Assembly: GCA_963714525.1 (NCBI GenBank)
Contig: CAVQPB010000001.1
Span: 21,495-85,494 of the forward strand
Direction: 5' to 3'
From: an uncultured Pseudomonadota bacterium
GTDB lineage: Bacteria; Pseudomonadota; Gammaproteobacteria; Burkholderiales; JALYOK01
DNA: 64,000 nucleotides
Position numbers and translations under genes: made by a program. The first letter of the stretch is position 1; every line of letters starts with the position of its first letter. The notes under the pieces are model-generated. The model saw only the letters and a list, made by a program, of their open reading frames with translations, was not told the origin of the DNA and made no database searches. Positions 6,784 through 51,650 of this stretch are shown here, piece by piece.

Positions 6784-6804
6784 ATCAGTTCTTGATCAGC
6801 ATCG

Positions 6805-7257
6805 TTAGGACCACGGCCAGACTTTGATGGGCAGGCCTAGGCTGTAGACAAAAAGCCCTAGGGCGACGACCAGTAGAAATACAATGAGGCTTAACATATC
6901 CCGCAACCGCGATTCGGGACTCGCGAGACAGCCGACCACAACCAGCGCGACCGTAGCAATCACCAAACCGGCCGGCTCGAGCAGCGCAGCGAAGATGAGC
7001 ATCGAAGCCAAAATTAAAATCAATGGACGCCAGTGAATCGTGTCAACGCGGGCGCCGGTGAGCAACAATGAACGCGCCGCGATGATCGCCCCGAGCAATG
7101 TCAGCAAGCCGCCTAACAGAGCGGGAAAATAACCCGGCCCCATGCGCGTGGCGGTGCCGAGGGAATATTCGCGGCCGATGATGAGGGCGATGATGCCGAC
7201 GCCGATGAAAATGAGTCCGGAGAAAAAATCTCTAGGGTGACGAATCTGGATCGCCAA
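6805..7257 (-). CDS. tctB: Tripartite tricarboxylate transporter small subunit TctB
   Basis: 150 aa, 4-TM hydrophobic protein immediately upstream of tctA on the same strand. Confidence 0.7.
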   Translation of the reverse strand: MAIQIRHPRDFFSGLIFIGVGIIALIIGREYSLGTATRMGPGYFPALLGGLLTLLGAIIAARSLLLTGARVDTIHWRPLILILASMLIFAALLEPAGLVIATVALVVVGCLASPESRLRDMLSLIVFLLVVALGLFVYSLGLPIKVWPWS

Positions 7258-7461
7258 ACGCTGCTCCTCTGCGAATTATTCTTGCCTGCATTCTCACGTG
7301 CCCGGCTGGATACGTCAACCGACAATGCCGCTATCATCACCTAGTGCGATGAATGCGAACCTATATTTCATCGAGCCAGAAGGCATATCCAGCTTGCCTC
7401 GTGGCAATGCCTGCCCTGAGAGCCGCATCCCACTTGGCTTCTGGCGATGCTCCTGTTTGAT

Positions 7462-27438: not shown

Positions 27439-28236
27439 ATGGCAACCAGCAAGCCAAGTCTAACTCCCAACACGCCGATCGCCTCCAGCGATGCGCTCAC
27501 TCTCGAGCGCGTCACCCGAACCTTCGGTGCGCTTGCGGCCATCCAAGATGTGTCGTTCTCGGTCGCGGCGGGTGAGCGGCGCGCCGTATTAGGCGCGAAC
27601 GGCGCGGGCAAGACCACCTTGTTCAACGCGGTCACCGGTGATTTTCCGCCCACCTCGGGCCGGGTGTTGTTTTTTGGCGAGGACGTAACCGAACTTCCGC
27701 CCCATGAGCGCATCCGTCGCGGACTGCGCCGAACCTATCAATCTTCACTGCTGTTTCGCGAACTAACGGTGCGCGATAACTTATTTCTTGCCGCCCGCGG
27801 CGCGACGCGCGGGCGCTTCAGTATGTGGCGGCCGCGTGCCCATCACCCCTCGCGCGTGGCCACCAACGATTTACTCGATCGCGTGCGCCTGTCGCACATC
27901 GCGGACGAATTGGTTTCGTCCCTGTCCCACGGCCAGCAGCGTCAATTGGAAATCGGCATGGCATTGGCCGGCGCGCCGCGCATGATTCTGTTCGACGAGC
28001 CGGCCGCTGGACTGTCGCCCGCCGAGCGGCGCGAACTGGTCCAATTGTTGAACGCATTTCCCGAGCACATGGGTTTTGTACTGATCGAGCACGATCTCGA
28101 AATCGCATTGCGGGTCGTCGAACGCGTCACGATTATGCATGACGGGAGAGTGCTCAAGCACGGCACGCCGAGCGAGATCGAGAACGACGCCGACGTGCAA
28201 GCCATTTATCTCGGTTCCCACGCGCGCACCCACTGA
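27439..28236 (+). CDS. ABC transporter ATP-binding protein (LivG-like)
   Basis: Walker [10 protein letters not shown], signature [12 protein letters not shown], Walker [12 protein letters not shown]. Confidence 0.85.
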
Positions 28237-36506: not shown

Positions 36507-37334
36507 ATGATAACAATGCAATCTACGCCGGTGCACCGAGCGTTATCCTGGCTGGTATTTTCGTCTCTGAGTTACGTAGCGTTTGCCCACGGCGCTGAAC
36601 CGGATCCGCCCGTTCCAAGTCCGCCGCAGGCAACAGCGAAACCGGATACAGCGCAGGGTCCGACCGTTATACGCCGCCGCGTAACGATATTGGATGAATA
36701 CACCGCCTTGCCGCAAGGCGATAGCCGTAACCGTTTATTGCTTAATGTGACTTATTCTTTTGGCGCCAAACGTGACTATGGGTTGACCGTCGAAGTGCCT
36801 TACGCCGACTATCGTGCTGTACCCCTTGCCAAGTCCGAACATGGGCTGGGTGATATCCGCATGTTTTTGATCCATCCCTTCGCCACCCAGGGGAAACTCA
36901 TTCATTCTTACGCTCTCGAAACCTATTTCAACACCGCCAGCGAGCTGACGTTAGGGCAGGGGAGTACGACGTTGTTGCCGTCCTATGCGCTGACCTATCG
37001 CCATAGCAAAGCGTTCCAGCTCATCGGTCTAGTGCAGTATCAATTTGATGTGCAACGCGACGCGGGTGTGGATCGCACGCGTATGTTGAATCTTCGCCCG
37101 TTCATGATCCTGAATTTTCCCGGCGATTGGTATTCGATCTCCGAGGTTAAAGCGGTACTCGATTTCGAACACGATAACCAGTGGTCCGTGGTCGCGACTA
37201 CATCGCTCGGCCGATTATTTGGCGAACGCAAGCAATGGGCTGTGTTCGGTGTGGTCGGTGGCCCCCTCAATGATTTTGCCCATGACTTTGTGCAGAAATA
37301 TCAGTTCAAAGCCGGATTCAATTATTTTTTCTAG
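36507..37334 (+). CDS. Putative outer-membrane beta-barrel protein (C-terminal ...GFNYFF)
   Basis: Signal peptide, alternating amphipathic beta-strands and a terminal aromatic residue. Possibly the MetA-pathway/transport OMP family. Confidence 0.5.
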   Translation: MITMQSTPVHRALSWLVFSSLSYVAFAHGAEPDPPVPSPPQATAKPDTAQGPTVIRRRVTILDEYTALPQGDSRNRLLLNVTYSFGAKRDYGLTVEVPYADYRAVPLAKSEHGLGDIRMFLIHPFATQGKLIHSYALETYFNTASELTLGQGSTTLLPSYALTYRHSKAFQLIGLVQYQFDVQRDAGVDRTRMLNLRPFMILNFPGDWYSISEVKAVLDFEHDNQWSVVATTSLGRLFGERKQWAVFGVVGGPLNDFAHDFVQKYQFKAGFNYFF

Positions 37335-37361: not shown

Positions 37362-38798
37362 ATGGCCAATCCCCCATCGTTTCACATGACCGCCGAGGAA
37401 TTCCGCCGCCACGGTAAAGAAGTCGTCGACTGGATTGCGGATTATTACGAGCGGGTCGAGTCGCTGCCGGTGTTATCGCAGGTCAAACCCGGCGAAATTC
37501 GCGCGTCGCTCCCGGCGCACGCTCCGCAGCAAGGCGAATCGTTCCGCGCCATGCTATCCGACATCGATCGATTGATCATGCCCGGCATCACCCACTGGCA
37601 GTCGCCGAATTTCTTTGCTTACTTTCCAGCCAATACCTCGGCGCCGTCGATCTTGGGCGAAATGCTGTCGGCAGGGCTGGGCGTGCAAGGGATGTTGTGG
37701 GCGACAAGTCCAGCTTGCACGGAACTGGAAACCCATGTGCTCGATTGGCTCGTGGACATGCTGGAGTTACCGTCCAAGTTCAAATCGAGCGGCAACGGCG
37801 GCGGTGTGATTCAAGATACTGCATCGAGCGCGGCGCTGTGCGCGGTGCTCGCAGCGCGCGAGCGAGCGACGGATTTCGCCGTTAATGAACAAGGCGGTAA
37901 TGGCAAGCTGGTGGCGTACACCTCCAACCAAGCCCATTCCTCCGTCGAAAAAGCGGTCAAGATCGCCGGGCTCGGCCGTAAGAATTTACGGCTGATCGAT
38001 GTCGATGAAAATTTTGCGTTGCGGGCTGATTTACTGCTCGCGCAAATCCGAAAAGACAAAGCAGAAGGGTTAGTCCCATGCTTTGTTTCCGCGACCGTGG
38101 GCACCACGTCATCTAACGGCCTAGATCCGCTGCGGGCTATCGGCGAGATCTGCCACGCAGAAAATATTTGGTTCCACGTCGATGGCGCCATGGCGGGCAC
38201 CGCCGCGCTGTGTCCGGAATTTCGTTATATCCAAGATGGCGTGGAACTCGCCGACAGTTATTGCTTCAATCCGCACAAATGGATGTTTACTAATTTCGAT
38301 TGCGATTGCTTTTATGTCGCCGACCGTGCGGTACTGATCAAGACCCTTAGCATCCTGCCGGAATTTTTACGTAATCAAGCGACCGAATCAGGAGCCGTGA
38401 TCGATTATCGCGATTGGCATGTCCCCCTGGGCCGCCGCTTTCGCGCGTTGAAATTGTGGTTTGTAATTCGCCATTACGGCGTCGAAGGATTGCAACACCA
38501 CATTCGAGAACACGTGAACATCGCCCAACAATTCGCACGCTGGGTGAGCGAGTCGTCAACTTTCGAATTAGCGGCGCCCGCGCCGCTGAATCTAGTGTGC
38601 TTCCGCCACCGCGATGGCGATGAGATCAACCGCCGGATACTCGAGCGACTCAATGAATCCGGCGAAATGTACCTTACTCATACAGCGTTAAATGGAAAAT
38701 TTACCTTGCGCCTTTGCGTGGGTCAGACGCAAACGGAAGCACGCCATGTCGAGCGCGCGTGGAAATTGATCCAGGCTGCAAGCCAAGCACAGAGCTAG
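37362..38798 (+). CDS. Pyridoxal-phosphate-dependent aromatic-L-amino-acid/tyrosine decarboxylase (group II)
   Basis: ...HWQSPNFFAYFPANTS...S-x-x-K (NPHKW) lysine region. 478 aa, a good group-II decarboxylase pattern. Confidence 0.85.
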   Translation: MANPPSFHMTAEEFRRHGKEVVDWIADYYERVESLPVLSQVKPGEIRASLPAHAPQQGESFRAMLSDIDRLIMPGITHWQSPNFFAYFPANTSAPSILGEMLSAGLGVQGMLWATSPACTELETHVLDWLVDMLELPSKFKSSGNGGGVIQDTASSAALCAVLAARERATDFAVNEQGGNGKLVAYTSNQAHSSVEKAVKIAGLGRKNLRLIDVDENFALRADLLLAQIRKDKAEGLVPCFVSATVGTTSSNGLDPLRAIGEICHAENIWFHVDGAMAGTAALCPEFRYIQDGVELADSYCFNPHKWMFTNFDCDCFYVADRAVLIKTLSILPEFLRNQATESGAVIDYRDWHVPLGRRFRALKLWFVIRHYGVEGLQHHIREHVNIAQQFARWVSESSTFELAAPAPLNLVCFRHRDGDEINRRILERLNESGEMYLTHTALNGKFTLRLCVGQTQTEARHVERAWKLIQAASQAQS

Positions 38799-38963
38799 TC
38801 TTCAAGATATCTGGCCTGAGAGGCATACTGGGTGCGGCTGCTGGCGATGCCTCTCAGTACGAATTATCGCGTTCCAAAATGCTACACGACGCGATGTCCG
38901 AAAAGCATTGCGACGTCATCTCAAAATCTCCCAACGTAGCAAAGTTATTTCCAGAAATCAGTC

Positions 38964-39174
38964 AAGCCACATAGTTTGCTCGCTCTACTACTTTTGGCTT
39001 AATCCTTTTGGCATATTGTAGAGCGTTAGAAATACGCGCACATTCGCTACTCGTTGTACAAAGCAGCTCCCAGAGGGGCTGCTATAAAACGATGGCCTGC
39101 GATATGCGTTGCGCATCCAAATGATTACACATTGTTGGGTTCCTCATTCACCCCAATTTACCACTCTAAACTTG
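38964..39174 (+). repeat. Copy A of a ~205-bp direct repeat (putative shared promoter/5' leader), ~60 nt upstream of the protease start
   Basis: ~80% identical to 41494-41698. Conserved blocks include ctactacttttg(g/a)cttaatccttttggcatattgt, ttagaaatacgcgcacattc, ttgtacaaag, a conserved hairpin (cagctccc...ggggctg), ttgcgcatccaaa and cattcacccca. Confidence 0.7.
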
Positions 39175-39235
39175 TGCTGCACGACCAGTGTTTCGCTCGC
39201 GATTGACCACGAAGCTAACTGAATTGGAGAACGAG

Positions 39236-41311
39236 ATGACTACCGAAAAGATTCTTGCGACCATCCTCTTTTTACTAACGGCCAGCTTTCAAGCTTGGGG
39301 CGCGAATTTGAGCCTGCCCATCGGCGGCAAAGTGTCTGTCGAGTTGATTTCATCCGATGCGGCTTTCAGCGATTCGCTCGCGTTAGTGTCGCCCGGCGCC
39401 GCAATCGCGCTCACCGGTTGCAAAGTGGACGCCACAGCGTTTACAGGCTTAAAGCTCATGAGTGAGAAGGCCTCACAGCACGGTTGCCGCGTCGAACTCG
39501 ACGCCGATCCGGGCACGGCTGGAATACAAGCATTCCCGGCTGGCTCACTGCTACAGTTCAACCTATGCGCCCAAACCGATGCAAATCCGGCTACCTGTGA
39601 GCACGTGTGGTCGAGCAACATGGCGTCGAACTCCGATGGCTTTGACCATGTGCGAATCACGCCGATTCGCTCCGCGGAGTTCCCCAACCGGATATTCCAG
39701 TTGTCCTGGGAAGATCTCCCGGGCGGTGGCGACAACGATTTCAACGATCTCATCGCGGTGGTGCGCGTCGAACTAGATAGCGACGGTGACGGCCTGTGGG
39801 ACGATTGGGAACAATTCGGCGTCGACACCGATGGCAACGGCACGATCGATCTCAACCTCCCCGCGCTCGGCGCCAACTCACAGCACAAAGACATCTTCCT
39901 CGAAATCGATTTCATGGACTGCGCACTGGCGGGAGGGGATTGCGCAGCCGGTGATACGCACAGTCATCGACCGAAGGCGGCGGCGATCGCGGCGGCCGTC
40001 CAGGCGTTTGCCGACGCGCCGGTGCCGAATCCCGATGGAGTCAACGGGATCAATCTGCACATCGACATCAGCAATTCGGTAGCGCACCAAAATGCGCTGA
40101 ACATCAATGGGCTGTGCTTCGGCGGCGGTCCCGGCATCGGCAGCTTTGACGCTGTAAAGAATAACGCTGCTAACTTTGGACCAAACAATCCGCGGCGATT
40201 TGCCTATCGTTACTCGCTATTCACACATCAACAGTTGTTGACCACAACTAGTTCCGGCTGCGGGGAGTTACCCGGCAACGATTTTCAGGTGGCCCTTGGC
40301 GGCTGGAATGTTGGGCAGGGTGACCTAGATGGTGATGGACTTGCCGACGCAGACGTCGGAACCGTGCAGCAGCAGGCGGGTACACTTATGCACGAGTTCG
40401 GACATAATCTAAACTTGCGTCATGGCGGAAGTGACAACATTAACTTCAAGCCCAATTACTTGAGCATCATGAGCTATCACTTCCAAATGATCGGGATATC
40501 GCCTTCCAACCGAGTTGATTACTCACGTACGGCATTGCCTAATCTCAACGAAGGAAACTTGAACGAACCAGCCGGTATTGGAGACGGAACGGACAACACC
40601 AGGCATTTTTGTCCCAACAACACTCTGCGAACCGGTGTGGGCAATGCGGCCATCGATTGGAACTGCAACAACAGCACCCTAGATGCTAGCGTCGCCGTAA
40701 ATACCAACGCACAGGGTGGCTTGGAAGCGCTGGCCGGCTTTGACGATTGGACCAACATCAAATACGATTTCCAAAATGCGGGCGATTTTGAGGACGGCGA
40801 GCACGCATTCAGTGAGCGGGTTGCCGAAATCGACTACCCCACCGCCCTGCAGATCGCACCACCGACGGGCCCTAGCTGCCTTGGCGTTGCTGCAACCATT
40901 GTCGGCACCAGCGGCAACGACGCACTCAACGGTACAGCGGGAGACGACGTCATTGTCGGCATGGGCGGCAACGACATCATCAACGGCAGTGCGGGCAACG
41001 ATCTCATCTGCGCGGGCGCCGGCAACGACGCCATCAACGGCGGCGCCGGCAACGACAACATCGATGCGGGAGATGGCAACAATCAAGTAAACGGTGGCAC
41101 CGGCGATGACACCCTGACTAGCGGAAACGGTGACGACACCATAAACGGCGGCGGCGGCAATGATGCTATCTCAAGCGGTGCCGGCAGTGACGTGATCAAC
41201 GCCGGAACTGGTAATGATCGAGTAGACGCTGGACCCGGCGTAGACACGATCCAGGGCGGCGCAGGAATCGACGTCTGCATTAATGGAGAAACGATCAACA
41301 GTTGCCCGTAA
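39236..41311 (+). CDS. Secreted multidomain zinc metalloprotease: DUF4114-like N-terminal domain, metzincin-type catalytic domain, C-terminal RTX (haemolysin-type Ca-binding) beta-roll
   Basis: Signal peptide MTTEKILATILFLLTASFQAWG. The DUF4114 motif is ...EDLPGGGDNDFNDLIAVVRVE. HEFGHNLNLRHGG plus the Met-turn SIMSY fits HExxHxxxxxH. Around a dozen GGxGxDxxx nonapeptide repeats follow (GTSGNDALNGTAGDDVIVGMGGNDIINGSAGND...). The ORF track starts at 39188. Confidence 0.7.
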   Translation: MTTEKILATILFLLTASFQAWGANLSLPIGGKVSVELISSDAAFSDSLALVSPGAAIALTGCKVDATAFTGLKLMSEKASQHGCRVELDADPGTAGIQAFPAGSLLQFNLCAQTDANPATCEHVWSSNMASNSDGFDHVRITPIRSAEFPNRIFQLSWEDLPGGGDNDFNDLIAVVRVELDSDGDGLWDDWEQFGVDTDGNGTIDLNLPALGANSQHKDIFLEIDFMDCALAGGDCAAGDTHSHRPKAAAIAAAVQAFADAPVPNPDGVNGINLHIDISNSVAHQNALNINGLCFGGGPGIGSFDAVKNNAANFGPNNPRRFAYRYSLFTHQQLLTTTSSGCGELPGNDFQVALGGWNVGQGDLDGDGLADADVGTVQQQAGTLMHEFGHNLNLRHGGSDNINFKPNYLSIMSYHFQMIGISPSNRVDYSRTALPNLNEGNLNEPAGIGDGTDNTRHFCPNNTLRTGVGNAAIDWNCNNSTLDASVAVNTNAQGGLEALAGFDDWTNIKYDFQNAGDFEDGEHAFSERVAEIDYPTALQIAPPTGPSCLGVAATIVGTSGNDALNGTAGDDVIVGMGGNDIINGSAGNDLICAGAGNDAINGGAGNDNIDAGDGNNQVNGGTGDDTLTSGNGDDTINGGGGNDAISSGAGSDVINAGTGNDRVDAGPGVDTIQGGAGIDVCINGETINSCP

Positions 41312-41493
41312 GCGAGTGCGACAAAGGTTGGAGGAATGGCCGTGCGCCGTCTCCTCCAGCCGCGTTTACGGCGCGTTCGTCCAATGTTCGCCGAAAGCTG
41401 TGCGGCGCACGCCAGATTTGATTGCAACGGAACGCATAGCGGCGTCACCTCAAAGTTTCTCATCTTGGGCCAAGTCATTGGTTCAGGAATCGG

Positions 41494-41698
41494 TGAAGCC
41501 ACGTAGTTCGCTCGCGCTACTACTTTTGACTTAATCCTTTTGGCATATTGTGGCGGGTTAGAAATACGCGCACATTCTTCGTTCGTTGTACAAAGTAGTC
41601 CCTAGTGGGGCTGCTTTAAGGTGATGGGCTGAGATAAGCGTTGCGCATCCAAACGATTACGCGTGGTTGGGGTTCACTTCATTCACCCCAACCTACCG
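41494..41698 (+). repeat. Copy B of the ~205-bp direct repeat, immediately upstream of the next secreted-protein gene
   Basis: See copy A. Ends ~65 nt before the ATG at 41766. Confidence 0.7.
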
Positions 41699-41765
41699 CG
41701 GCCCATTGTTAGTTATCGGTGTACCAATTTAGTTGGTCGGGTTATTTCATTAAAAGGAGATTGTT

Positions 41766-42047
41766 ATGTTTAAGCTTCGTTTTCTTTTTGTTGCTGCCTG
41801 GTCTTTCTTGTTTTTAAGTATCGGCGACGTTTCGGCGGCCGCGTTGACAGCCGTCCCCGCGCGGGCCGAGGTGGGCGAGTTACGGGATCGCTCCCATGCC
41901 GTGGAGTTGGCTCAAGCTCAGACGGGTCTCTATGGCCCGTACGCCACCATCCGCCGCGCAAACGATGTCGCGAACGACTTTCGAAACCGCGGTTTCAACG
42001 CTCAGGTTTACCCCGAACAGGGCGCCTACTACGTCAAGGTCTGGTAA
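41766..42047 (+). CDS. Small secreted hypothetical protein (possible SPOR-like C-terminus)
   Basis: RBS AAGGAG. Signal peptide MFKLRFLFVAAWSFLFLSIGDVSA. The C-terminal ...YGPYATIRRANDVANDFRNRGFNAQVYPEQGAYYVKVW is loosely SPOR-like. Confidence 0.45.
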   Translation: MFKLRFLFVAAWSFLFLSIGDVSAAALTAVPARAEVGELRDRSHAVELAQAQTGLYGPYATIRRANDVANDFRNRGFNAQVYPEQGAYYVKVW

Positions 42048-42132
42048 TGTCGGCCGACGCTCTTCGCTGTGAGGTTTTTGATCTCGAACACATTATTAGG
42101 CTGGCGTATTCCAAAATGTTCAAGCCAATATA

Positions 42133-42417
42133 TTGAGCGGAGTGAAGCACATGTTCTGTCCTAAGTGCGCTGCGGAAAATCCCGATAAAGCTCGGTTTTG
42201 TCGGCAATGCGGTGTCGAGATGCGAGCAGTACAGGAACCGGCTAACAAGTCGCCCCAAGTACCGACAAAGCGCTTTGGAAGTTTTATCGGTGCTGCGGTC
42301 CTATCGACCTTCGGTCTCATTTTTTTGTTGGCGGGCCTGATGGGAGGTGATCCTAGCGCCTTTGTGCTAGCCGCGCCGTGCCTGATCGGCGCCTATTGGC
42401 TATTTACCAAAAAGTAG
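42133..42417 (+). CDS. Zinc-ribbon membrane protein (N-terminal CxxC-x12-CxxC, two C-terminal TM helices)
   Basis: MFCPKCAAENPDKARFCRQCGVEM..., then FIGAAVLSTFGLIFLLAGLM / FVLAAPCLIGAYWLF. Confidence 0.5.
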   Translation: MSGVKHMFCPKCAAENPDKARFCRQCGVEMRAVQEPANKSPQVPTKRFGSFIGAAVLSTFGLIFLLAGLMGGDPSAFVLAAPCLIGAYWLFTKK

Positions 42418-42504
42418 CGTGCGTCGACGGAGGAAAGCGCCGGACGGTGACTGTTGTTGTCGCCACCTAATTGAAACCCAGCAGCGTCATAGAAGGATGA
42501 CAGG

Positions 42505-43890
42505 ATGGCGATAGATACCGCCGTCGGCGAACAGTTCTTAGGAGATCTGATAAGGGCGGCCACCCGGGATGCCGCAAGTTTTGTGATGCCGGGCAGCGCA
42601 ATCGCAGCGTATTTGCTCGAGCGTGGCGCCCTCGCTTGCGCCAAGGCCGCGTGGGACTGTCTCCAGCAAATGAAGTCACAGCAACAACGGCAGCGGATGA
42701 TCAATGCGATGACACAGATTCGTCCTGATCGATCCAGGGCGATCGCGGAGACGGAGGTCGATCGCTACGCGTTCAGCCAACAGACAAAGGCCGAATTGAT
42801 CAACTATTTCTCCGCGATACCAATGACGTCTCGACATGCCATCAGCCGTCCAAATGACGGCGGCAAACCAATCACGCTGCTATCCCAGCTTCCGCGCACA
42901 CATACTGACTTGCTGCGCTTCATGCCGTTGCGGCCGCCGCGTTTTCAACCCGGCGATCAAGTGCCCGGCTATGACTATCGACTCGAGATCCTGTTGGGAC
43001 AGGGCGGGTTTGCTGAAGTGTGGAAAGCGTATCACGTCATCCAGCGCTCACAACCCGCAGTGGCGCTTAAGTTCTGCCTCGATCAGGCGCTGCTAGCGAG
43101 TCTGAAGACGGAGATAAAAGTCTACGACCAGCTTAAAGACCATCCCGACCCACAACACTTGGTCCGCCTCATTGGCACCGCTTATTCCGCTAGCTCACCG
43201 TTTCTTGTTTATGAGTACGTAGACGGTGGTGATCTGGCCGCGTGGCTCGCTGACTTCGCCGGGAAAACGCCGTCGGTTCGAGATGTCGTGCGCATATTGA
43301 AGATGACCGCTCGCGCTCTAGCCTTTGCCCATAGGCGCGGTATCGTCCATCGTGACTTGAAACCGGCGAATCTCTTGGTCACCCGGGATGGGAATGTCAA
43401 GGTGGCAGATTTTGGTATCGGTGCGATCACGGCCAGTGCTGAAGCCGAGCGTGAGCGAGGTAAGAGCGTCACTGGGGCAACCTTCTTGCAAGGGGCATAT
43501 AGCCCGATGTATTCCGATCCTCGACAACGCGCGGGCGAGGCGCCAGAGCCTAGGTTTGATGTCTATGCTCTCGGGGTCATCGCCTACCAACTGCTTATCG
43601 GCGACGTGACGCGGGAGATCGGCCCGGCCTGGCGTGCCGAGCTTGAGGAAAACAATATCCCGCCCAAAGTGCTCGATATGGTCGCCGCGTGCGTGGATGT
43701 CCCCTCGAAACGATTAGCCGATGCGGGCGCGCTACTGACGGCGCTTGATAAGCTCAATTCTGAGCAACTGAGCCAAGTAACTAGAGGTGAAACGGTCTCC
43801 GAGGTTCTAATCAACTATTGCATCCAATGCGGCGCAAAAATTCAGGCCGATGACAGATTCTGTACGCGGTGCGGAAACAACATCCGATAG
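42505..43890 (+). CDS. Hanks-type Ser/Thr protein kinase with ~150-aa N-terminal extension and C-terminal zinc ribbon
   Basis: GQGGFAEVWKA...VALKF (VAIK-like)...HRDLKPANLL...DFG...APE-like region. C-terminal CIQCGAKIQADDRFCTRCG. Confidence 0.8.
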   Translation: MAIDTAVGEQFLGDLIRAATRDAASFVMPGSAIAAYLLERGALACAKAAWDCLQQMKSQQQRQRMINAMTQIRPDRSRAIAETEVDRYAFSQQTKAELINYFSAIPMTSRHAISRPNDGGKPITLLSQLPRTHTDLLRFMPLRPPRFQPGDQVPGYDYRLEILLGQGGFAEVWKAYHVIQRSQPAVALKFCLDQALLASLKTEIKVYDQLKDHPDPQHLVRLIGTAYSASSPFLVYEYVDGGDLAAWLADFAGKTPSVRDVVRILKMTARALAFAHRRGIVHRDLKPANLLVTRDGNVKVADFGIGAITASAEAERERGKSVTGATFLQGAYSPMYSDPRQRAGEAPEPRFDVYALGVIAYQLLIGDVTREIGPAWRAELEENNIPPKVLDMVAACVDVPSKRLADAGALLTALDKLNSEQLSQVTRGETVSEVLINYCIQCGAKIQADDRFCTRCGNNIR

Positions 43891-44027
43891 CAAAAGACAC
43901 GTTCGGGATGAAAGTGGTGCTCTGTGGATCTGGCGTTATGCGCTTTGATCCTATGTATCAAGCGCATCTAGCCTAGATGGGGATCTCTCTCTGGTAGAAT
44001 TCTGAAAGATCAAATTGGGAGGAGTAC

Positions 44028-46916: not shown

Positions 46917-47220
46917 CGTTTTCCTTCCAGATGCGTGGTGACGCAATCAATCCGATCATAATTAAGTCTTGACTACGACAAAAAAAGCTCGTAGATTCCG
47001 TCCTGTCACGCTAATGTAGTATTGCATTAGTATTCTTCACGAAAGCGATAAGCCGGATCGCAGCAACAAAAATAATTCTCCCGGTGTAGCGTTAATTTAA
47101 ACTTTTTATACGTCGGGCTGGTGAGTCATCGCGCTGCTCCGATCGTTAGTATTGTCCATCGGGTTCTGGCTGGGGGCGAATGACTATGAAAAGTCATCAA
47201 CTAATAACAGGAGCCCGGCC

Positions 47221-49428
47221 ATGTACAGATTTGTTGTTCTTTCGGCGATTTTTTTCTTCGCCCTTGCCTCTAGCGCACAAACCATTTCCCTTGAGCCGGT
47301 CGTTGCGGGCTTAAAAAGTCCCATCGGCGTTTACCACGCCGGCGATGGCTCCGGCCGTTTGTTCATCCTCGAACAAGGCGGTTACGTCCGAATCTGGAAC
47401 GGCACTCAACTTCTGACCACACCATTTCTCAACATCGACGTCTTGACTAACGGCGGTGGTGAGCAAGGCCTGTTGGGCATTGCGTTTCATCCGAATCACG
47501 AATCTAACGGTTTCTTTTTTGTCAGCTACACGGACTTGTCCGGAAACACGGTGATCGCTCGTTATAGTGTGTCCACCGCGAATCCCAATGTCGCCAACGC
47601 CAGTTCCGGCACAACGATTTTATCTGTTGCGCAGCCTTTCTCTAATCACAACGGTGGTCAAATTCAATTCGGCCCCGATGGTTATCTTTACATCTCCATG
47701 GGGGACGGCGGCGACGCGGGCGATCCGGGAAATCGCGCGCAAAATCTCACCACAATGCTGGGAAAGATGCTGCGTATCGATGTCGATCGTGGCCTGCCTT
47801 ACACCATTCCCGCGACCAACCCGTTCGTCGGCAATACCAATGCCGCGGTCAAAAAAGAAATCTGGGCTTATGGTTTGCGTAACGCCTGGGGCTTTAGCTT
47901 CGATCGCAGCACCGGCGATCTCATCATGGGCGATGTAGGCCAGAATGCCTGGGAAGAAATCGATTTCCAGCCGCGGTCCAGCGCCGGCGGTGAGAACTAC
48001 GGCTGGCGCAAGATGGAAGGTAATAACTGCTTCAATCCCTCGACCAACTGTAATGATGGCACGCTTACCCTACCGATCATCCAGTACAGTCATGCTGCGG
48101 GCAACTGTTCCGTGGCGGGCGGTTATCGCTACCGCGGCAGCCGCTGGGCGACGCTGACGGGCACTTATTTTTACGGCGATTTATGCAGCGGACGCATATG
48201 GGGCGCCAAGCCAAGCGGCGCGACTTGGGTCACCAACCAACTTCTCGACACGGCGCTCACCATCAGCGCATTCGGCGAGGACGAAGCGGGCGAAGTGTAT
48301 GTAGTCGATCTGGATAGCGCGAACGGCGCGGTCTATCGTATTGCGTCTACCAGTAGTACTACGGAAATCATCGTAGATAATTTACCCGCCGGTGGTCGGG
48401 ATGCGACGCGAACATTTACGGGAACATGGTGTAAGTCCGGCGCTGCCGGGTTTTACGGCGCGGATTCCCTCTACAGTTGCGGCAGCGGTATCGACACCTA
48501 TCGCTGGACCCCCAACATTTCCAGCGACCGCGCCTACGACGTCTATGTGCGTTGGACTGCCAACCCGAATCGTTGGACGGCGGTTCCGGTAACAGTCGTT
48601 CACGCAGGGGGAACCACCACGCAGAATTTCAATCAGCGCATTAACGGCGCCGTGTGGACTCTCCTCGGACGGTTTACATTTAATGCGGGAACCGCCGGTT
48701 ATATCGAAACTAACGATAGCGCCGGCCAAGCTAACGCAGACGCAGTACGCCTAGTTCCCGCGTCGGGACCTGCCACGGCGAAATTGACGGTAAGCAAGGC
48801 GGGGAGCGGCAGCGGACGCGTAAGCTCTAATCCCGCCGGTGTTGATTGTGGCGCCGATTGCACGGAGGACTTTTCGCTTAACAGCGTCGTGCAAGTTACG
48901 GCGACACCCGATGCCGGTTCGACGTTTTTCGAATGGGGCGGACCCTGCGCCGGAAATGGCGCTTGCACGATCACCATGAACGATTCGAAATTCCTGGCGG
49001 CCACCTTCCGCGTGACCGATGTCATTGTCGACAACGCCGGTTTGGGGGTACAAGATACAGCCGGTGGACGAACCTTCACGGGTACATGGTGTAGATCGTC
49101 TGGCCTGCTGCCTTTTGGCGCCGAATCCTTGGCGAGTTGCGGCAGTGGGCTCGATACCTATCGGTGGACGCCGAAAGTTCCGAAAGCGGGGGGCTACGGT
49201 GTTTACGTCTGGTGGACCACCCATCCCAATCGCTCGAGCACTGTACCGATCACGATTCAGCATGCCGGTGGCAACACAACCGTGCACGTAGATCAGAAAG
49301 TCAACGGCGGGAAGTGGGTGTTGCTCGGCACTTACAATTTTTCTGCAGGCTCCGTTGGCTCCGTTCAAGTCAGCGATGCAAATGGCCAAGCCTGCGCCGA
49401 TGGGATCAAACTTGTTCCTGCGTTTTAG
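47221..49428 (+). CDS. Secreted PQQ-dependent soluble sugar dehydrogenase-like beta-propeller + divergent InlB-B-repeat + two copies of a ~125-aa C-terminal module
   Basis: RBS AGGAG. Signal MYRFVVLSAIFFFALASSAQ. GSDH-like N-terminal ~400 aa (GLLGIAFHPN..., NHNGGQIQFGPDGYLYIS). B-repeat region ...LTVSKAGSGSGRVSSNPAGVDCGADC...WGGPC. The modules lie at ~48367-48762 and ~49021-49425 (IIVDN...FTGTWC.S...YSCGSG.DTYRWTP...Y.VYVWW...NR...VP.T..HAGG...Q..NGG.W.LLG...F.AG..G......A.GQA.AD..KLVPA). Confidence 0.7.
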   Translation: MYRFVVLSAIFFFALASSAQTISLEPVVAGLKSPIGVYHAGDGSGRLFILEQGGYVRIWNGTQLLTTPFLNIDVLTNGGGEQGLLGIAFHPNHESNGFFFVSYTDLSGNTVIARYSVSTANPNVANASSGTTILSVAQPFSNHNGGQIQFGPDGYLYISMGDGGDAGDPGNRAQNLTTMLGKMLRIDVDRGLPYTIPATNPFVGNTNAAVKKEIWAYGLRNAWGFSFDRSTGDLIMGDVGQNAWEEIDFQPRSSAGGENYGWRKMEGNNCFNPSTNCNDGTLTLPIIQYSHAAGNCSVAGGYRYRGSRWATLTGTYFYGDLCSGRIWGAKPSGATWVTNQLLDTALTISAFGEDEAGEVYVVDLDSANGAVYRIASTSSTTEIIVDNLPAGGRDATRTFTGTWCKSGAAGFYGADSLYSCGSGIDTYRWTPNISSDRAYDVYVRWTANPNRWTAVPVTVVHAGGTTTQNFNQRINGAVWTLLGRFTFNAGTAGYIETNDSAGQANADAVRLVPASGPATAKLTVSKAGSGSGRVSSNPAGVDCGADCTEDFSLNSVVQVTATPDAGSTFFEWGGPCAGNGACTITMNDSKFLAATFRVTDVIVDNAGLGVQDTAGGRTFTGTWCRSSGLLPFGAESLASCGSGLDTYRWTPKVPKAGGYGVYVWWTTHPNRSSTVPITIQHAGGNTTVHVDQKVNGGKWVLLGTYNFSAGSVGSVQVSDANGQACADGIKLVPAF

Positions 49429-49460: not shown

Positions 49461-51650
49461 ATGCCTGCACTTGTACAGCGCGCGATCCCTAAAGTAATAT
49501 TCCTTGCGCTCACCATAATGTTTTTTGCACAGCAAGCCACTGCACAAGTTGCATCGCCTTTCCCAGTGGCTAATCCGAGCTTCGAAGGAAGTTATGGCGC
49601 GCTTGCGGACTGCAGCAATATCACCGGCGAAGTGGCCATGGGTTGGAGCGATAATACCTGCTGGGACGAGCGCCGCCCAGTGATACGCTATGCACGGGAT
49701 ACGGTCAACCCGCATAGCGGTACCGCATCGCAAAAAATTACCTTGGTGAGCGGCAGCCGCGTGCAGTTTTCTCAGTTTCTGTCGCTGGCTTTTGAGGCAG
49801 GTAAGCGCTATTCGACTTCCGTTTGGATGCGTGCGCAGGCGCCGATGTTCGCGACCATCGTGTTGCGGCAATCAGGTCCGCCGTACACCGGTTACACCAG
49901 CAAGTTAATCCGGCTCTCGACAGCCTGGACGCGGTTTGATCTCGACGGTTTCACCGATAGCACGGACATTGTGCTGCTTGTTATCGCGGAGTCGCCGGGT
50001 ACTTTTTGGATCGACGACGTTGCGATCCAAAGCGAAGCCTCAAACGCTCTCAGTCCCTCGCCGCCGACAACTGCCGTGCCGCGCGCTTATTTCGCCATGC
50101 ATTTCAATCGTCTCGATACGCCTTGGCCGCGGGTAAATAATGCCATCGGTTCGGTCAGGATTTGGGACGCGGGAGAAAATCGTAACGGATCCGGCACGGG
50201 CGCGCAATGGTCGGAAATAAATGCCGTGGCGGGCAGCTTCGATTGGAGCGGCCTCGACGCACGCGTTGCGGCGGCGCTAGCGAATAACGCCGATATCGTT
50301 TACACGTTGGGTGGCCGCACCCCGCAATGGGCTTCCGCCCGGCCCGATGTATTTAGCCCCTATGGGCCTGGTCAATGTGCCGAACCTAAGAGCGACCAAG
50401 TATGGCAAGACTGGGTGCGAACCATCGCCACGCGCTACAAAGGGAAAATCAAACTTTGGGAGGTGTGGAACGAGCCTGATATTGCCGATTTCTACTGCGG
50501 TTCGCCCGACAAACTCGTGGATCTCGCACGGCAAGTCTACGCTATCGTCAAACAAGTCGATCCCACCAACCGCGTATTGTCTCCGGGCTTTAGCGGTTAT
50601 CAAGGCCCAGGGTATCTAGATTATTATTTAGCGAAGGGTGGGGCGCAGTACGCGGATATCTTGAGCTATCACTTCTACGTCGATACGCCCGAGCAAAACG
50701 CGGGAGGACGCATGGCAAATCTCCGGTCCACGATTCAGCGCTATGGTGCGCAAGCCAAACCGCTGTGGAATACCGAACAGGGCTGGATCGAAATTCCGAC
50801 CCCGACGCCGATTCCACAGGCGACGGCTGCGGCCTATGTCGCTCGCACCTACCTGCTGAATTGGGCCTACGGTATCGGGCGTTACTACTACTACACTTGG
50901 GATAATCAATGGAACCGCTTTCAGTTTGTTCAGGCCGATGGCTTGACCTTGACGCCTGCCGGAGTTGCCTACCGTGAAGTGGCGCAGTGGATGACAGGGA
51001 AGGTCATGGAGTCGCTCAGCAGCGATGTGAACGGCACTTATGTTGCAACGTTGCGCGACACCGGTGGCAAAAAGTTGCGTGTGCTGTGGAACCCGCGGCA
51101 AAGTGTGCAATTCGCGCTCCCCGCAAGTTGGGGCGTTAACCAGCAACGAAACCTTGCTGGCGCCCTGGTGAATTTGACCGGAAAGACGAGTGTCGCAATC
51201 GGTGCGTCACCGGTCTTGCTCGAGCAAGCCGCAGCGTCCGGAACCGAAATCATACTGGATAATCTGTTGGCCGGCGGACGTGATGCCACGCGCAGTTCTA
51301 CCGGCACCTGGTGTCAATCTATCGCAGCCAATAAATACGGCGCAACCTCGCTCTACAGTTGTGGCGCCTCGACTGACACCTACCGCTGGACGCCGAACTT
51401 GCCGAAAGCCGGTAGGTATGAAGTCTACGTCTGGTGGGCAAGCAACCTCAATCGCTCGACCCGCGTTCCGATCAGTGTGGTTTCGGCCACGGGATCGGTC
51501 AGTAAAATCGTCGACCAGAAAACCACAGGGGGTAGTTGGGTTCTACACGGCATCTATAGCTTTACCGCGGGTACGACGGGCTACGTGCAAGTGAGCGATG
51601 TCAATGGCCAGGCGGGTGCCGATGCGGTGAAATTCGTAGCGGTACCATAG
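49461..51650 (+). CDS. Secreted glycoside hydrolase (clan GH-A-like, WEVWNEPD acid/base motif) with N-terminal CBM-like domain and the same ~125-aa C-terminal module
   Basis: Signal peptide. PSFEGS...WIDDVAIQ reads as a CBM4/9-like jelly roll. The catalytic (beta/alpha)8 has ...KLWEVWNEPD.... C-terminal module at ~51247-51647 (EIILDNLLAGGRDATRSSTGTWCQS...YEVYVWW...VQVSDVNGQAGADAVKFVAVP). Confidence 0.7.
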   Translation: MPALVQRAIPKVIFLALTIMFFAQQATAQVASPFPVANPSFEGSYGALADCSNITGEVAMGWSDNTCWDERRPVIRYARDTVNPHSGTASQKITLVSGSRVQFSQFLSLAFEAGKRYSTSVWMRAQAPMFATIVLRQSGPPYTGYTSKLIRLSTAWTRFDLDGFTDSTDIVLLVIAESPGTFWIDDVAIQSEASNALSPSPPTTAVPRAYFAMHFNRLDTPWPRVNNAIGSVRIWDAGENRNGSGTGAQWSEINAVAGSFDWSGLDARVAAALANNADIVYTLGGRTPQWASARPDVFSPYGPGQCAEPKSDQVWQDWVRTIATRYKGKIKLWEVWNEPDIADFYCGSPDKLVDLARQVYAIVKQVDPTNRVLSPGFSGYQGPGYLDYYLAKGGAQYADILSYHFYVDTPEQNAGGRMANLRSTIQRYGAQAKPLWNTEQGWIEIPTPTPIPQATAAAYVARTYLLNWAYGIGRYYYYTWDNQWNRFQFVQADGLTLTPAGVAYREVAQWMTGKVMESLSSDVNGTYVATLRDTGGKKLRVLWNPRQSVQFALPASWGVNQQRNLAGALVNLTGKTSVAIGASPVLLEQAAASGTEIILDNLLAGGRDATRSSTGTWCQSIAANKYGATSLYSCGASTDTYRWTPNLPKAGRYEVYVWWASNLNRSTRVPISVVSATGSVSKIVDQKTTGGSWVLHGIYSFTAGTTGYVQVSDVNGQAGADAVKFVAVP

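What the first reader, a model, noticed from the sequence alone, without database searches (positions are those of the whole stretch)
38964..41698. Secreted DUF4114-metzincin-RTX protease gene bracketed by ~205-bp direct repeats
The 2.1-kb gene encodes, after a signal peptide, a DUF4114-like domain (EDLPGGGDNDFNDLIAVVRV), a zinc protease core with HEFGHNLNLRHGG and a SIMSY Met-turn, and about twelve GGxGxD RTX nonapeptides. DUF4114 together with a metzincin and an RTX beta-roll is an unusual architecture. The gene is flanked by two ~80%-identical 205-bp direct repeats. These could be the scars of a duplication or insertion event, or could allow the gene to be excised or amplified by homologous recombination.
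Basis: partly seen in the sequence, partly recalled or inferred. Interest (0 to 1): 0.62.

Follow-up and report, generated by a model that had tools for sequence, protein, structure and literature searches.

The report
Secreted protease gene flanked by duplicated spacer
A gene for a secreted sugar-binding zinc protease was stacked in front of a neighbouring operon by a recombination event that duplicated about 265 bp of non-coding DNA; this is ordinary bacterial genome tinkering rather than a new kind of element.

Summary
Window 39236-41311 (+) encodes a 691-aa protein with a signal peptide, a DUF4114 (LecB-like lectin) domain, a metzincin-fold zinc protease and an RTX beta-roll. It sits between two direct copies of a ~265-bp non-coding segment (38899-39163 and 41430-41699; 80-83% identical, E=8e-63).

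The architecture is not unusual. The lectin+protease core has 1,567 clusters at E<=1e-30, with interchangeable C-terminal modules.

The repeats are not a REP or mobile element. Only two copies exist in 2.36 Mb of held sequence, always at this locus. Each copy ends at a sharp breakpoint about 70 nt upstream of a gene start (protease; small-ORF/Zn-ribbon/kinase operon).

In a sister lineage (L092) the right copy extends into a truncated 3' end of the upstream decarboxylase gene. So the repeat is a segmental duplication of the decarboxylase-distal flank, most likely made by homology-facilitated illegitimate recombination at a variable site. More distant relatives (L010, L178) lack the whole block.

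The arrangement persists in at least three lineages. The copies are too diverged (longest identical run 22 nt) for efficient excision.

Unexpectedly, the protease is chimeric: its catalytic domain (~39950-40870) is 62% identical to the sister allele, against 92-95% in the flanking domains.

The parts
37362..38798 (+). Pyridoxal-dependent (aromatic amino acid type) decarboxylase. This is the conserved gene upstream of the variable site. Its last ~150 nt are part of the duplicated segment in sister lineage L092.
   Evidence: Pfam Pyridoxal_deC E=1.7e-119. It is syntenic in L010, L176, L177 and L178. The orphan fragment appears in L092.
38799..38898 (.). Spacer just after the decarboxylase gene. 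It is shared with L178 up to window 38873, and duplicated in L092 but not in the window's right copy.
38899..39163 (.). Left copy of the ~265-bp non-coding repeat. It ends at ...CACCCCAATTTACCAC, directly before the protease leader.
   Evidence: It is non-coding: no codon periodicity and no shared ORF.
39164..39235 (+). Protease-specific leader of 72 nt with a GGAGAA ribosome-binding site. It is not part of the repeat. It is shared with L001 and L177 (81-89% identity).
39236..41311 (+). Protease gene, 691 aa. Signal peptide aa 1-22; LecB-like DUF4114 lectin aa 23-180; Asp-rich linker aa 181-245; metzincin-fold catalytic domain aa 246-545; RTX beta-roll aa 546-685.
   Evidence: It is under purifying selection: against L001, codon positions 1+2 differ at 0.033 per site and position 3 at 0.140.
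39302..39775 (+). DUF4114 / PA-IIL (LecB)-like Ca2+-dependent lectin domain, with the acidic loop EDLPGGGDNDFND.
39950..40870 (+). Recombinant block, approximately the catalytic domain. It is 50-70% nt and 62.5% aa identical to the sister allele in L177, while the flanking parts of the same gene are 92-95% identical at the aa level (93-100% nt).
40391..40423 (+). Zinc-binding motif HEFGHNLNLRH (H386, E387, H390, H396).
   Evidence: Invariant in 61 homologs. Weak profile hits to the adamalysin zinc site.
40463..40477 (+). SIMSY, the putative Met-turn (S410, M412 and Y414 are invariant).
   Evidence: Local model confidence here is only 55-76, so placement beneath the zinc site was not verified.
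40871..41290 (+). RTX nonapeptide repeats: about 13 units, with a 27-nt period seen 12 times.
41312..41429 (.). Protease 'tail', a non-coding stretch that travels with the gene (the stretch 41312-41436 is 96% identical in L092). It ends in CGGAACGCA at the junction with the right repeat copy.
   Evidence: No homolog was found elsewhere.
41430..41699 (.). Right copy of the repeat. It ends at ...CACCCCAACCTACCGC, directly before the small-ORF leader. Relative to L092 it lacks ~296 nt at its 5' side (the orphan decarboxylase fragment plus spacer).
41766..42047 (+). Small ORF, 93 aa, with a hydrophobic signal-like N-terminus and no family match. It is the first gene of a conserved three-gene module.
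42151..42417 (+). Zn-ribbon protein with a hydrophobic C-terminal half, 88 aa.
   Evidence: Pfam Zn_Ribbon_1 and DZR. The gene is called in L007, L090 and L094.
42505..43890 (+). Ser/Thr protein kinase with a C-terminal Zn-ribbon. It is the last gene of the block that is absent from L010 and L178.
   Evidence: Pfam Pkinase 4.4e-31. Synteny.

Best explanation
The two repeats are the two copies of a segmental duplication of the DNA immediately downstream of the decarboxylase gene.

Context: the site just past the decarboxylase is variable in this group of uncultured Burkholderiales. One relative goes straight to the TRAP transporter and another carries an unrelated gene. In the window's clade a protease module (72-nt leader, gene, 125-nt tail) and a small-ORF/Zn-ribbon/kinase operon are stacked there in tandem.

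Proposed mechanism: homology-facilitated illegitimate recombination. Incoming DNA was anchored by homology in the decarboxylase and its downstream spacer. Its far end (the tail) was joined illegitimately to the resident decarboxylase 3' region. This pushed the resident 3' end, spacer and operon downstream. The resident 3' end survives as an orphan fragment in L092. In the window lineage about 296 nt of that redundant DNA were later deleted at a short microhomology (CGGAACGCA / CGAAAAGCA), leaving a ~265-bp repeat.

Consequence: the protease and the operon each lie behind a copy of the same upstream non-coding stretch, about 70 nt before their own leaders.

The cargo: a Sec-exported, Ca2+-dependent protease with three modules.
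- A LecB-like lectin domain, presumably targeting glycans.
- An adamalysin-like metzincin domain that cuts.
- An RTX beta-roll, which replaces the DUF11, PKD or dockerin modules of relatives and probably acts as a Ca2+-folded stabilising or anchoring module rather than a type I secretion signal.

The gene has itself been remodelled by recombination: its catalytic domain was replaced by one from a distant family member.

Shown: the duplication, its sharp 3' boundary, the orphan decarboxylase fragment (one contig), absence of the block in more distant relatives, the domain folds, and the mosaic catalytic domain.

Inferred: the HFIR mechanism, the order of events, the microhomology deletion, and the functions of the lectin, protease and RTX modules.
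For: Repeat pair and its statistics.

Register: each copy ends 66-72 nt before a start codon, at a sharp breakpoint. The sequence ...CACCCCAAC-CTACCGC is followed by TCTAAACTTGTGC in left copies (window, L177, L001) and by GGCCCATTGTTAG in right copies (window, L092).

Orphan fragment: L092 reads protease 3' end plus tail (96.7% to window 41194-41436). It then continues into a truncated decarboxylase 3' end (NESGEMHLTH...AASQY*), the spacer, the element and the small ORF.

Same left arrangement in the sister lineage L176/L177 and in L001.

Variable site: L010 joins the decarboxylase to the TRAP receptor within ~200 bp. L178 shares sequence only to window 38873 and then carries an unrelated minus-strand gene.

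No other copies in 2.36 Mb of held sequence. No mobile-element genes within about 13 kb.

Age: paralogous and orthologous copies are equally diverged (83-86.5% in the core). That is similar to third-position divergence of flanking genes (0.17-0.26), so the event is about as old as these lineages.

Precedent for anchor-plus-illegitimate-end stacking that leaves orphan 3' regions: PMC5361080.

Protein. Mosaicism.
Against: - The orphan decarboxylase fragment rests on one 2.7-kb metagenomic contig (L092). L090, L091 and L093 start downstream of the junction and cannot confirm it. No shared k-mer that would cause a chimeric assembly is visible at the junction, but this was not tested with reads.
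- No genome was found with the decarboxylase followed directly by the small-ORF operon, or by the protease alone. So the 'two alternative modules' premise and the order of events are unproven.
- The deletion endpoint in the window coincides with the tail/duplication junction. This requires a microhomology exactly there. Independent junction formation in the two lineages is an alternative.
- The decarboxylase 3' fragment in L092 differs from L177's functional 3' end mostly at synonymous sites (3 aa changes from 14 nt differences). That is more than expected for a long-neutral relic.
- Window versus L177 divergence dips to 80-84% over 38550-39150, with higher identity on both sides. This indicates further recombination events that the simple model does not specify.
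- Campbell-type integration of a circular intermediate, or replicative template switching, would give the same end product.
Confidence: 0.6

Rival explanations
1. The repeat is kept in two copies because it is a functional cis-regulatory cassette: a promoter/operator and/or a structured 5' leader RNA. It would put the secreted protease and the small-ORF/kinase operon under common control. The duplication history would then be secondary. This is compatible with the best explanation as an added layer.
For: - Both copies lie in the same orientation and register, 66-72 nt upstream of a start codon.
- The core is retained in every left and right copy in all lineages. By contrast, the redundant DNA 5' of it (orphan gene fragment and spacer) was lost from the right copy in the window and apparently in L094.
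- Invariant blocks of 21-22 nt are present.
- A 9-bp hairpin (AGCAGCTCC...GGGGCTGCT) keeps 42 of 45 pairs on the + strand against 35 of 45 on the - strand, with one compensatory change.
- A weak promoter-like TTGTGG-N17-CACATT motif is in register in 4 of 5 copies.
Against: - No Rfam family at gathering or permissive thresholds.
- The RNAalifold covariation term is +0.94, meaning no support.
- Folding z-scores are only -2.4 and -1.2.
- No consensus sigma-70 promoter or terminator was found.
- The element is no better conserved than neighbouring synonymous or non-coding sequence. For orthologous left copies: core 83%, spacer 85.5%, protease leader 89%. The small-ORF leader outside the repeat is 97% conserved against 86.5% for the core.
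- The element is absent upstream of the protease in 61-71% relatives.
- It was not found outside this narrow clade.
Confidence: 0.2
2. The direct repeats are active recombination substrates that let the protease gene be looped out or amplified. This would give presence/absence or copy-number polymorphism in the population.
For: - Direct repeats flanking a gene are the geometry required for RecA-mediated deletion or tandem amplification.
- The locus shows clear signs of repeated recombination.
Against: - The copies are 17-20% diverged, and the longest identical run is 22 nt.
- The minimal efficient processing segment is 25-35 bp, and 15-16% divergence lowers recombination about 1000-fold (PMC6382021).
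- The decarboxylase-element-protease arrangement is retained in the window, L001 and L176/L177, and the protease-tail-element-small ORF arrangement in the window and L092.
- No contig with a single hybrid copy and no protease was found. Contigs that initially looked like empty sites (L090, L093) do not span the junction.
Confidence: 0.08
3. The repeat is a member of a multicopy intergenic element family (REP, BIME or MITE-like) that happens to have two copies near this gene.
For: - It is a non-coding, intergenic element of a few hundred bp containing a hairpin.
- The rest of the source genome could not be searched.
Against: - Only two copies exist in the 64-kb window and none elsewhere in 2.36 Mb of held sequence, which includes about 40 kb of other sister-lineage contigs.
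- There were 0 hits for conserved cores in the 185,579 species-representative genomes and in JGI metagenomes.
- No terminal inverted repeats were found.
- In L092 the repeated segment runs on into a housekeeping gene's 3' end, which a mobile element would not do.
Confidence: 0.03

Closest known systems
Serralysins (MEROPS M10B; AprA, PrtC, Serratia protease)
   Same: A secreted bacterial metzincin zinc protease followed by a C-terminal Ca2+-binding RTX beta-roll. Foldseek aligns whole serralysins to the model, and the RTX repeats match by sequence.
   Different: - The catalytic domain is not a serralysin. NCBIfam Zn_serralysin scores 23.9 bits against a cut-off of 500, and only over the RTX part.
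- This protein has an N-terminal Sec-type signal peptide and an N-terminal lectin domain, and it ends 6 residues after the last repeat.
- No type I secretion genes lie within about 13 kb.
Adamalysin/reprolysin/ADAM (M12B) and fragilysin catalytic domains
   Different: - Sequence similarity is marginal. Reprolysin_3 and Reprolysin_5 score below Pfam thresholds, and the profile against PDB gives E=0.04-0.45 over ~20 residues only.
- The motif Gly is Asn.
- The domain is about 300 residues, larger than the ~200-residue adamalysin domain.
PA-IIL/LecB-type lectins and other DUF4114 proteins (Myxococcus PilY1.1, Acanthamoeba mannose-binding protein)
   Same: - It matches Pfam DUF4114.
- The fold matches LecB.
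- The acidic DNDxND Ca2+/sugar loop is conserved.
- DUF4114 is described as a Ca2+-dependent sugar-binding domain in PMC9109919 and PMC11934332.
   Different: Here the domain is an N-terminal module of a protease, not a free tetrameric lectin or a pilus tip protein. Sugar binding has not been tested.
Module stacking by homology-facilitated illegitimate recombination (orphan 3' regions in Rhs/CDI loci; T6SS effector-immunity arrays of Vibrio cholerae)
   Same: A conserved upstream region acts as the anchor. A new module is inserted and the resident one is shifted downstream. A truncated copy of the upstream gene's 3' end is left behind, and the result is repeated upstream segments (PMC5361080; compare).
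   Different: - The cargo is a secreted protease and a kinase operon, not toxin/immunity pairs.
- Only two modules are stacked.
- The duplicated segment is mostly non-coding.
- The mechanism is inferred from the end product only.
Mosaic genes for secreted or surface proteins produced by interspecies recombination (for example the pneumococcal pbp genes and Neisseria IgA protease; cited from general knowledge)
   Same: A ~900-nt block of 30-50% nt divergence has sharp borders inside a gene that is otherwise 93-100% identical between sister lineages. Nearest relatives are incongruent between domains.
   Different: The exchanged block coincides with a whole catalytic domain. The donor is a distant paralog-like family member (about 70% aa identity at best), not a close species. 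No donor was identified.

Membership tests
Metzincin clan of zinc endopeptidases | Zinc site with three His ligands and the catalytic Glu in HEXXHXXGXXH | tested here: met
   The motif is HEFGHNLNLRH. H386, E387, H390 and H396 are invariant in 61 homologs. The conserved Gly at motif position 8 is Asn in this family, which is a deviation.
Metzincin clan of zinc endopeptidases | Met-turn downstream of the third His | tested here: inconclusive
   In SIMSY, S410, M412 and Y414 are invariant, lying 16 residues after H396. Model confidence in aa 400-430 is only 55-76. The position of M412 under the zinc site was not inspected.
Metzincin clan of zinc endopeptidases | Metzincin catalytic fold | tested here: met
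Metzincin clan of zinc endopeptidases | Zn-dependent proteolytic activity | not testable with these tools
   Needs purified protein and an E387A control.
Adamalysin/reprolysin (Pfam Reprolysin_3/5) or pappalysin (Peptidase_M43) families | Score at or above the family's curated Pfam cut-off | tested here: not met
   Peptidase_M43 scores 14.0 bits against 23. Reprolysin_3 scores 13.8 against 22.4. Reprolysin_5 scores 12.8 against 27. All three cover only the ~22 residues around the zinc motif.
Serralysin (M10B) | Serralysin catalytic domain | tested here: not met
   NCBIfam Zn_serralysin scores 23.9 bits against 500, and ZapA scores 27.9 against 940. Both match only the RTX region.
Serralysin (M10B) | Type I secretion: no N-terminal signal peptide, a C-terminal secretion signal, and an adjacent ABC/MFP/OMF system | tested here: not met
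   The N-terminus has a hydrophobic signal-like sequence. The protein ends 6 residues after the last repeat. No T1SS genes were found among the ORFs of at least 180 aa at 26-52 kb. The rest of the genome was not available.
RTX repeat proteins (PF00353) | Tandem GGxGxD nonapeptides forming a beta-roll | tested here: met
DUF4114 / PA-IIL (LecB)-like lectin domain | Pfam PF13448 above the cut-off | tested here: met
   35.6 bits against 27, covering aa 100-177. The same domain is precomputed for nearly all homologs.
DUF4114 / PA-IIL (LecB)-like lectin domain | LecB beta-sandwich fold and acidic Ca2+/sugar-binding loop | tested here: met
DUF4114 / PA-IIL (LecB)-like lectin domain | Ca2+-dependent sugar binding | not testable with these tools
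   Needs a glycan array or ITC.
REP/BIME/MITE-type multicopy intergenic repeats | Many dispersed copies per genome | tested here: not met
   There are two copies in the 64-kb window and none elsewhere in 2.36 Mb of held sequence. Genome and metagenome scans for conserved cores gave 0 hits. The full source genome was not searchable.
REP/BIME/MITE-type multicopy intergenic repeats | Element-defined ends (terminal inverted repeats or target-site duplication) independent of neighbouring genes | tested here: not met
   No terminal inverted repeats were found. In L092 the repeated segment continues into the decarboxylase coding sequence.
Known structured RNA families (riboswitch, leader, sRNA) | Match to an Rfam covariance model, or covariation-supported structure | tested here: not met
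   There were 0 hits at gathering thresholds. The only hit at E<=1 was a Guanidine-III match at 20.8 bits against 36, in the tail on the - strand. The RNAalifold covariation term is +0.94.
HFIR-type module stacking with orphan 3' fragments (a mechanism class, not a sequence family) | Duplicated upstream anchor plus a truncated orphan copy of the upstream gene's 3' end, sitting between the new and the displaced module | tested here: met
   L092 shows tail | NESGEMHLTH...AASQY* | spacer | element | small ORF. This rests on a single contig.
HFIR-type module stacking with orphan 3' fragments (a mechanism class, not a sequence family) | Existence of the parental single-module alleles | tested here: inconclusive
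   Relatives with neither module were found (L010 and L178).

The most novel reading that the evidence does not exclude
The locus could be a standing module-shuffling system. A conserved lectin N-terminus and RTX C-terminus would serve as a scaffold and homology arms. Whole catalytic domains from distant family members would be swapped between them, giving co-existing protease 'specificity alleles' in one population, analogous to polymorphic toxins. The duplicated intergenic segment would then serve as the anchor that moves the whole gene between strains and wires it to the same upstream control region as the neighbouring kinase operon.
Probability: 0.15. Interest if true: 0.5.

Novelty: new member of a known kind. 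Interest (0 to 1): 0.25.

Why it matters
It matters modestly, in three ways.

1. It shows at nucleotide resolution how an accessory secreted-enzyme gene can be stacked into a chromosomal variable site without any mobile-element machinery. The event leaves a few-hundred-bp duplication that could be mistaken for an insertion element or a regulatory repeat.

2. It flags a very large, uncharacterised family: LecB-like lectin plus adamalysin-like metzincin, mostly from soil and sediment bacteria. The catalytic domain has no Pfam or NCBIfam model. A lectin-guided protease is a plausible tool for attacking glycoproteins or glycan-coated surfaces.

3. The clean catalytic-domain replacement inside an otherwise near-identical gene is a tidy natural example of domain-level recombination. 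It could guide experiments on the specificity of this family.

None of these overturns current understanding.

Tried and rejected
- Exact-sequence look-ups of the protease (both possible starts) and of the decarboxylase found nothing on record.
- A 22-nt invariant core of the repeat gave 0 hits in the species-representative genomes. A gapped 3' core gave 0 hits in JGI metagenomes.
- The metagenome scan with the decarboxylase returned only relatives of at most 77% identity.
- I first read L090 and L093 as 'empty sites' (decarboxylase end, one element, small ORF). I rejected this once direct comparison showed that they begin 70-100 nt downstream of the L092 junction and are the same structure.
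- More distant protease loci (L002, L003-L006) have no flanking repeats and no copy of the element.
- RNA family searches, the consensus fold, single-sequence folds, promoter/terminator scans and a relaxed in-register promoter search gave nothing convincing.
- Base composition shows no foreign-DNA signature across 34-48 kb.
- The protease tail and the post-kinase spacer have no homolog in L010, L178, L094, L002, L003 or elsewhere in the window.
- phmmer of the lectin domain against PDB found nothing.
- An integron-cassette reading was considered and rejected. No integrase is nearby, the repeat is at the 5' side of the genes, and it includes a housekeeping gene's 3' end.
- A coding reading of the repeat was rejected: no codon periodicity (p=0.40) and no shared ORF.


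Full report
**What is there.**

The region contains a 2,076-nt gene (39236-41311, + strand). It follows a pyridoxal-dependent decarboxylase gene (37362-38798). It is followed by a small ORF (41766-42047), a Zn-ribbon protein (42151-42417) and a Ser/Thr kinase (42505-43890).

Two direct copies of a non-coding segment flank the gene.
- The repeat finder reports 188 nt at 84% identity.
- A gapped alignment extends the copies to about 38899-39163 and 41430-41699.
- BLAST gives 267 columns at 79.8%, E=7.6e-63, with no third copy in the window.
- A profile built from five copies finds no further copy in 2.36 Mb of held sequence.

**The protein.**

Pfam confirms the RTX repeats (E=1e-30) and DUF4114 (35.6 bits against a cut-off of 27). 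It gives only sub-threshold hits for the protease. NCBIfam and PDB sequence searches see only the RTX part.

I tested the metzincin call in two ways.
- In an alignment of 61 homologs, H386, E387, H390, H396, M412 and Y414 are invariant.

The zinc motif is HEFGHNLNLRH, so the canonical Gly is Asn.

The literature treats DUF4114 as a Ca2+-dependent sugar-binding domain (PMC9109919 and PMC11934332).

The N-terminus (MTTEKILATILFLLTASFQAWG|AN) looks like a Sec signal peptide. This is an inference from sequence. No type I secretion genes lie within about 13 kb. The RTX roll is therefore more likely a Ca2+-folded stabilising or anchoring module than a secretion signal.

The gene is under purifying selection: against L001, codon positions 1+2 differ at 0.033 per site and position 3 at 0.140.

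**Is the architecture unusual?**

No. The full-length search returned over 1,000 relatives. The best 120 share the DUF4114+protease core at 50-71% identity over about 77% of the query. Their C-termini are DUF11, PKD, dockerin or RTX.

An exhaustive search with the core alone (aa 23-545) finds 1,567 clusters (50% identity level) at E<=1e-30 and 5,212 at E<=1e-10. Many contain only the linker plus catalytic part inside larger proteins. The RTX-tailed form is a minor variant of a large, unnamed, freely shuffled family.

**What the repeats are.**

Each copy ends at a sharp point...CACCCCAAC-CTACCGC. Left copies then continue into a protease-specific leader (TCTAAACTTGTGC...GGAGAA..ATG). Right copies continue into a small-ORF-specific leader (GGCCCATTGTTAG...GGAGATTGTTATG).

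The decisive evidence comes from related contigs.
- L007-L009 are the same strain as the window (99.4% identity).
- L001 (protease 92% nt identical) carries the 3' end of the left copy.
- L176 and L177 (decarboxylase 96% aa identical) have the same order: decarboxylase, element, protease.
- L092 has a small ORF 85% identical to the window's. It reads protease 3' end plus 125-nt tail (96.7% to the window), then a truncated decarboxylase 3' end (NESGEMHLTHTVLKGKFTLRLCVGQTQTEMRHVERAWKLIQAASQY*), then the spacer, the element and the small ORF.

So the duplicated unit originally spanned at least 510 nt, from about 147 nt inside the decarboxylase gene to the breakpoint. The window's right copy lacks the first ~296 nt. 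The junction there shows a short microhomology: CGGAACGCA in the tail against CGAAAAGCA in the spacer.

A repeat that runs into a housekeeping gene's 3' end is a locus duplication. It is not a mobile element, a REP or an integron site.

**The site is variable.**

In the Burkholderiales MAG L010 (decarboxylase 83% aa identical), the flanks are syntenic but the decarboxylase is followed within ~200 bp by the TRAP receptor that lies at 44028 in the window. In L178 (89% aa identical) homology stops at window 38873 and an unrelated minus-strand gene follows.

Window ~38874-44027 is therefore an accessory block made of two modules. Composition is unremarkable, and no integrase or transposase is nearby.

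**Mechanism.**

The end product has these features: a conserved upstream anchor present twice, a new module in between, the resident module shifted downstream, and an orphan 3' fragment of the upstream gene. This is what homology-facilitated illegitimate recombination (HFIR) is proposed to produce in Rhs/CDI loci and in Vibrio cholerae T6SS arrays (PMC5361080).

I infer the following sequence.
1. DNA carrying the decarboxylase 3' part, spacer, protease and tail recombined homologously within the decarboxylase.
2. Its far end joined illegitimately to the resident decarboxylase 3' region.
3. A microhomology deletion later trimmed the right copy in the window lineage.

Campbell-type integration of a circular intermediate, or template switching, would give the same product and cannot be excluded.

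On age: in the element core, orthologous pairs (83.1% and 86.5%) and paralogous pairs (83.2% and 85.8%) are equally diverged. This is close to third-position divergence of the flanking genes (0.17-0.26). The event is therefore about as old as these lineages, and the copies have not been homogenised.

**Does the element do anything?**

The evidence is weak either way.

Points in favour of function:
- The core is retained in front of both genes in all lineages, while the redundant DNA 5' of it was lost twice.
- One 9-bp hairpin keeps 42 of 45 pairs on the + strand against 35 of 45 on the - strand.
- A poor promoter-like motif is in register in four of five copies.

Points against function:
- No Rfam match was found.
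- There is no covariation.
- Folding z-scores are unremarkable.
- No consensus promoter or terminator was found.
- Conservation is no higher than in neighbouring neutral-like sequence, and the small-ORF leader outside the repeat is much better conserved (97% against 86.5%).

The element is non-coding.

**Excision or amplification.**

The copies differ by 17-20% and share at most 22 identical bases in a row. The minimal efficient processing segment is 25-35 bp, and about 15-16% divergence lowers recombination roughly 1000-fold (PMC6382021). The arrangement is kept in every lineage sampled.

**An unexpected extra: the protease is chimeric.**

I compared the window with L176/L177 in sliding windows. 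Identity by region was:
- flanks: about 85-94%
- 38550-39150 (decarboxylase 3' end, spacer and element): 80-84%
- protease leader, lectin and linker: 89-97%
- ~39975-40875 (catalytic domain): 57-69%
- RTX region: 85-87%

By domain, window against L177 is 94.9% (lectin), 93.8% (linker), 62.5% (catalytic) and 91.8% (RTX). The block borders are sharp, at about 39950 and 40870. L001 and L177 are 98-100% identical just outside the block.

L177 is uniformly 80-87% identical to the RTX-tailed relative P0002. The window/P0001 catalytic domain instead finds PKD- or dockerin-tailed members as its nearest relatives (about 70%), not P0002 or P0003. This incongruence indicates replacement of the catalytic domain in the window/L001 lineage by one from a distant family member. 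No donor was identified.

**Verdict.**

The features are real and now largely explained. The gene encodes a new member of a large uncharacterised family of lectin-metzincin proteases. It sits in a recombination-prone variable site. The flanking repeats are the scar of a duplicative stacking event. They are not a mobile or multicopy element, and at present they are not an efficient excision device.

Interest is low to moderate (0.25). The most novel reading still open is a standing domain-swapping and module-moving system with a shared control region, at about 15% probability.

Noticed in passing
window 39950-40870 (compare L177:4110-5030): The catalytic domain of the protease is a recombinant block. 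It is 62.5% aa identical to the sister allele, while the lectin, linker and RTX parts are 92-95% identical. Its nearest relatives are non-RTX family members.
   Followed up: yes
window 38874-44027: The whole block (both repeat copies, protease, small ORF, Zn-ribbon protein, kinase) is missing from two syntenic relatives. L010 joins the decarboxylase to the TRAP receptor. L178 has an unrelated minus-strand 256-aa gene after the decarboxylase. This is a variable site without mobile-element genes.
   Followed up: partly
window 38550-39150 vs L176/L177: Identity to the sister lineage drops from 91-95% to 79-84%, starting about 200 nt before the decarboxylase stop. That is close to where the orphan fragment in L092 begins (window 38652). 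This suggests the duplicated segment has been exchanged as a unit at least once more.
   Followed up: partly
window 41766-43890; L090, L094: The small signal-peptide ORF, Zn-ribbon membrane protein and Ser/Thr kinase with a C-terminal Zn-ribbon form a conserved three-gene module (about 89% nt identity in sister lineages). The small ORF has no family match. The kinase's best NCBIfam hit is an antiphage MADS6 kinase, far below its cut-off (124.6 bits against 460).
   Followed up: partly
L094:448-642 and L094:1040-1306: In one sister lineage an extra 64-aa Zn-ribbon ORF sits between the element and the small ORF. It is a partial duplicate (about 79% over 72 nt) of the downstream Zn-ribbon gene. 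The element's 3' boundary differs there.
   Followed up: no
window 36507-37334: A 275-aa ORF with a signal-like N-terminus and a C-terminal ...FNYFF has no Pfam or NCBIfam hit. It is possibly an outer-membrane beta-barrel. It is variable among relatives: 201 aa in L176/L177, two small ORFs in L178, and absent in L010.
   Followed up: no
window 39236-39301 and 40871-41311: The protease combines an N-terminal Sec-type signal peptide with RTX repeats and ends 6 residues after the last repeat. There is no type I secretion system nearby. The export route of such RTX proteins is unclear.
   Followed up: partly
window 47152-49428 and 49461-51650: Two adjacent large proteins each end in Golvesin_C domains. 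One has a glucose/sorbosone dehydrogenase domain and the other a glycoside-hydrolase-like core.
   Followed up: no
window 28236-30515: A 759-aa ORF fuses an ABC-transporter ATPase domain to both halves of UPF0261. It lies next to a second ABC ATPase and a periplasmic binding protein.
   Followed up: no
window 41341-41412 (-): There is a sub-threshold Rfam hit to the Guanidine-III riboswitch (20.8 bits against a gathering score of 36, E=0.22) in the protease tail on the minus strand. It is most likely chance.
   Followed up: no
L178:1-1789 vs window 5513-7321: The TctA/TctB genes, which lie ~30 kb from the decarboxylase in the window, are within ~8 kb of it in L178. There they sit next to a 1,739-aa DUF11/CLIPPER repeat protein that the window lacks. 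This indicates a larger rearrangement between clades.
   Followed up: no
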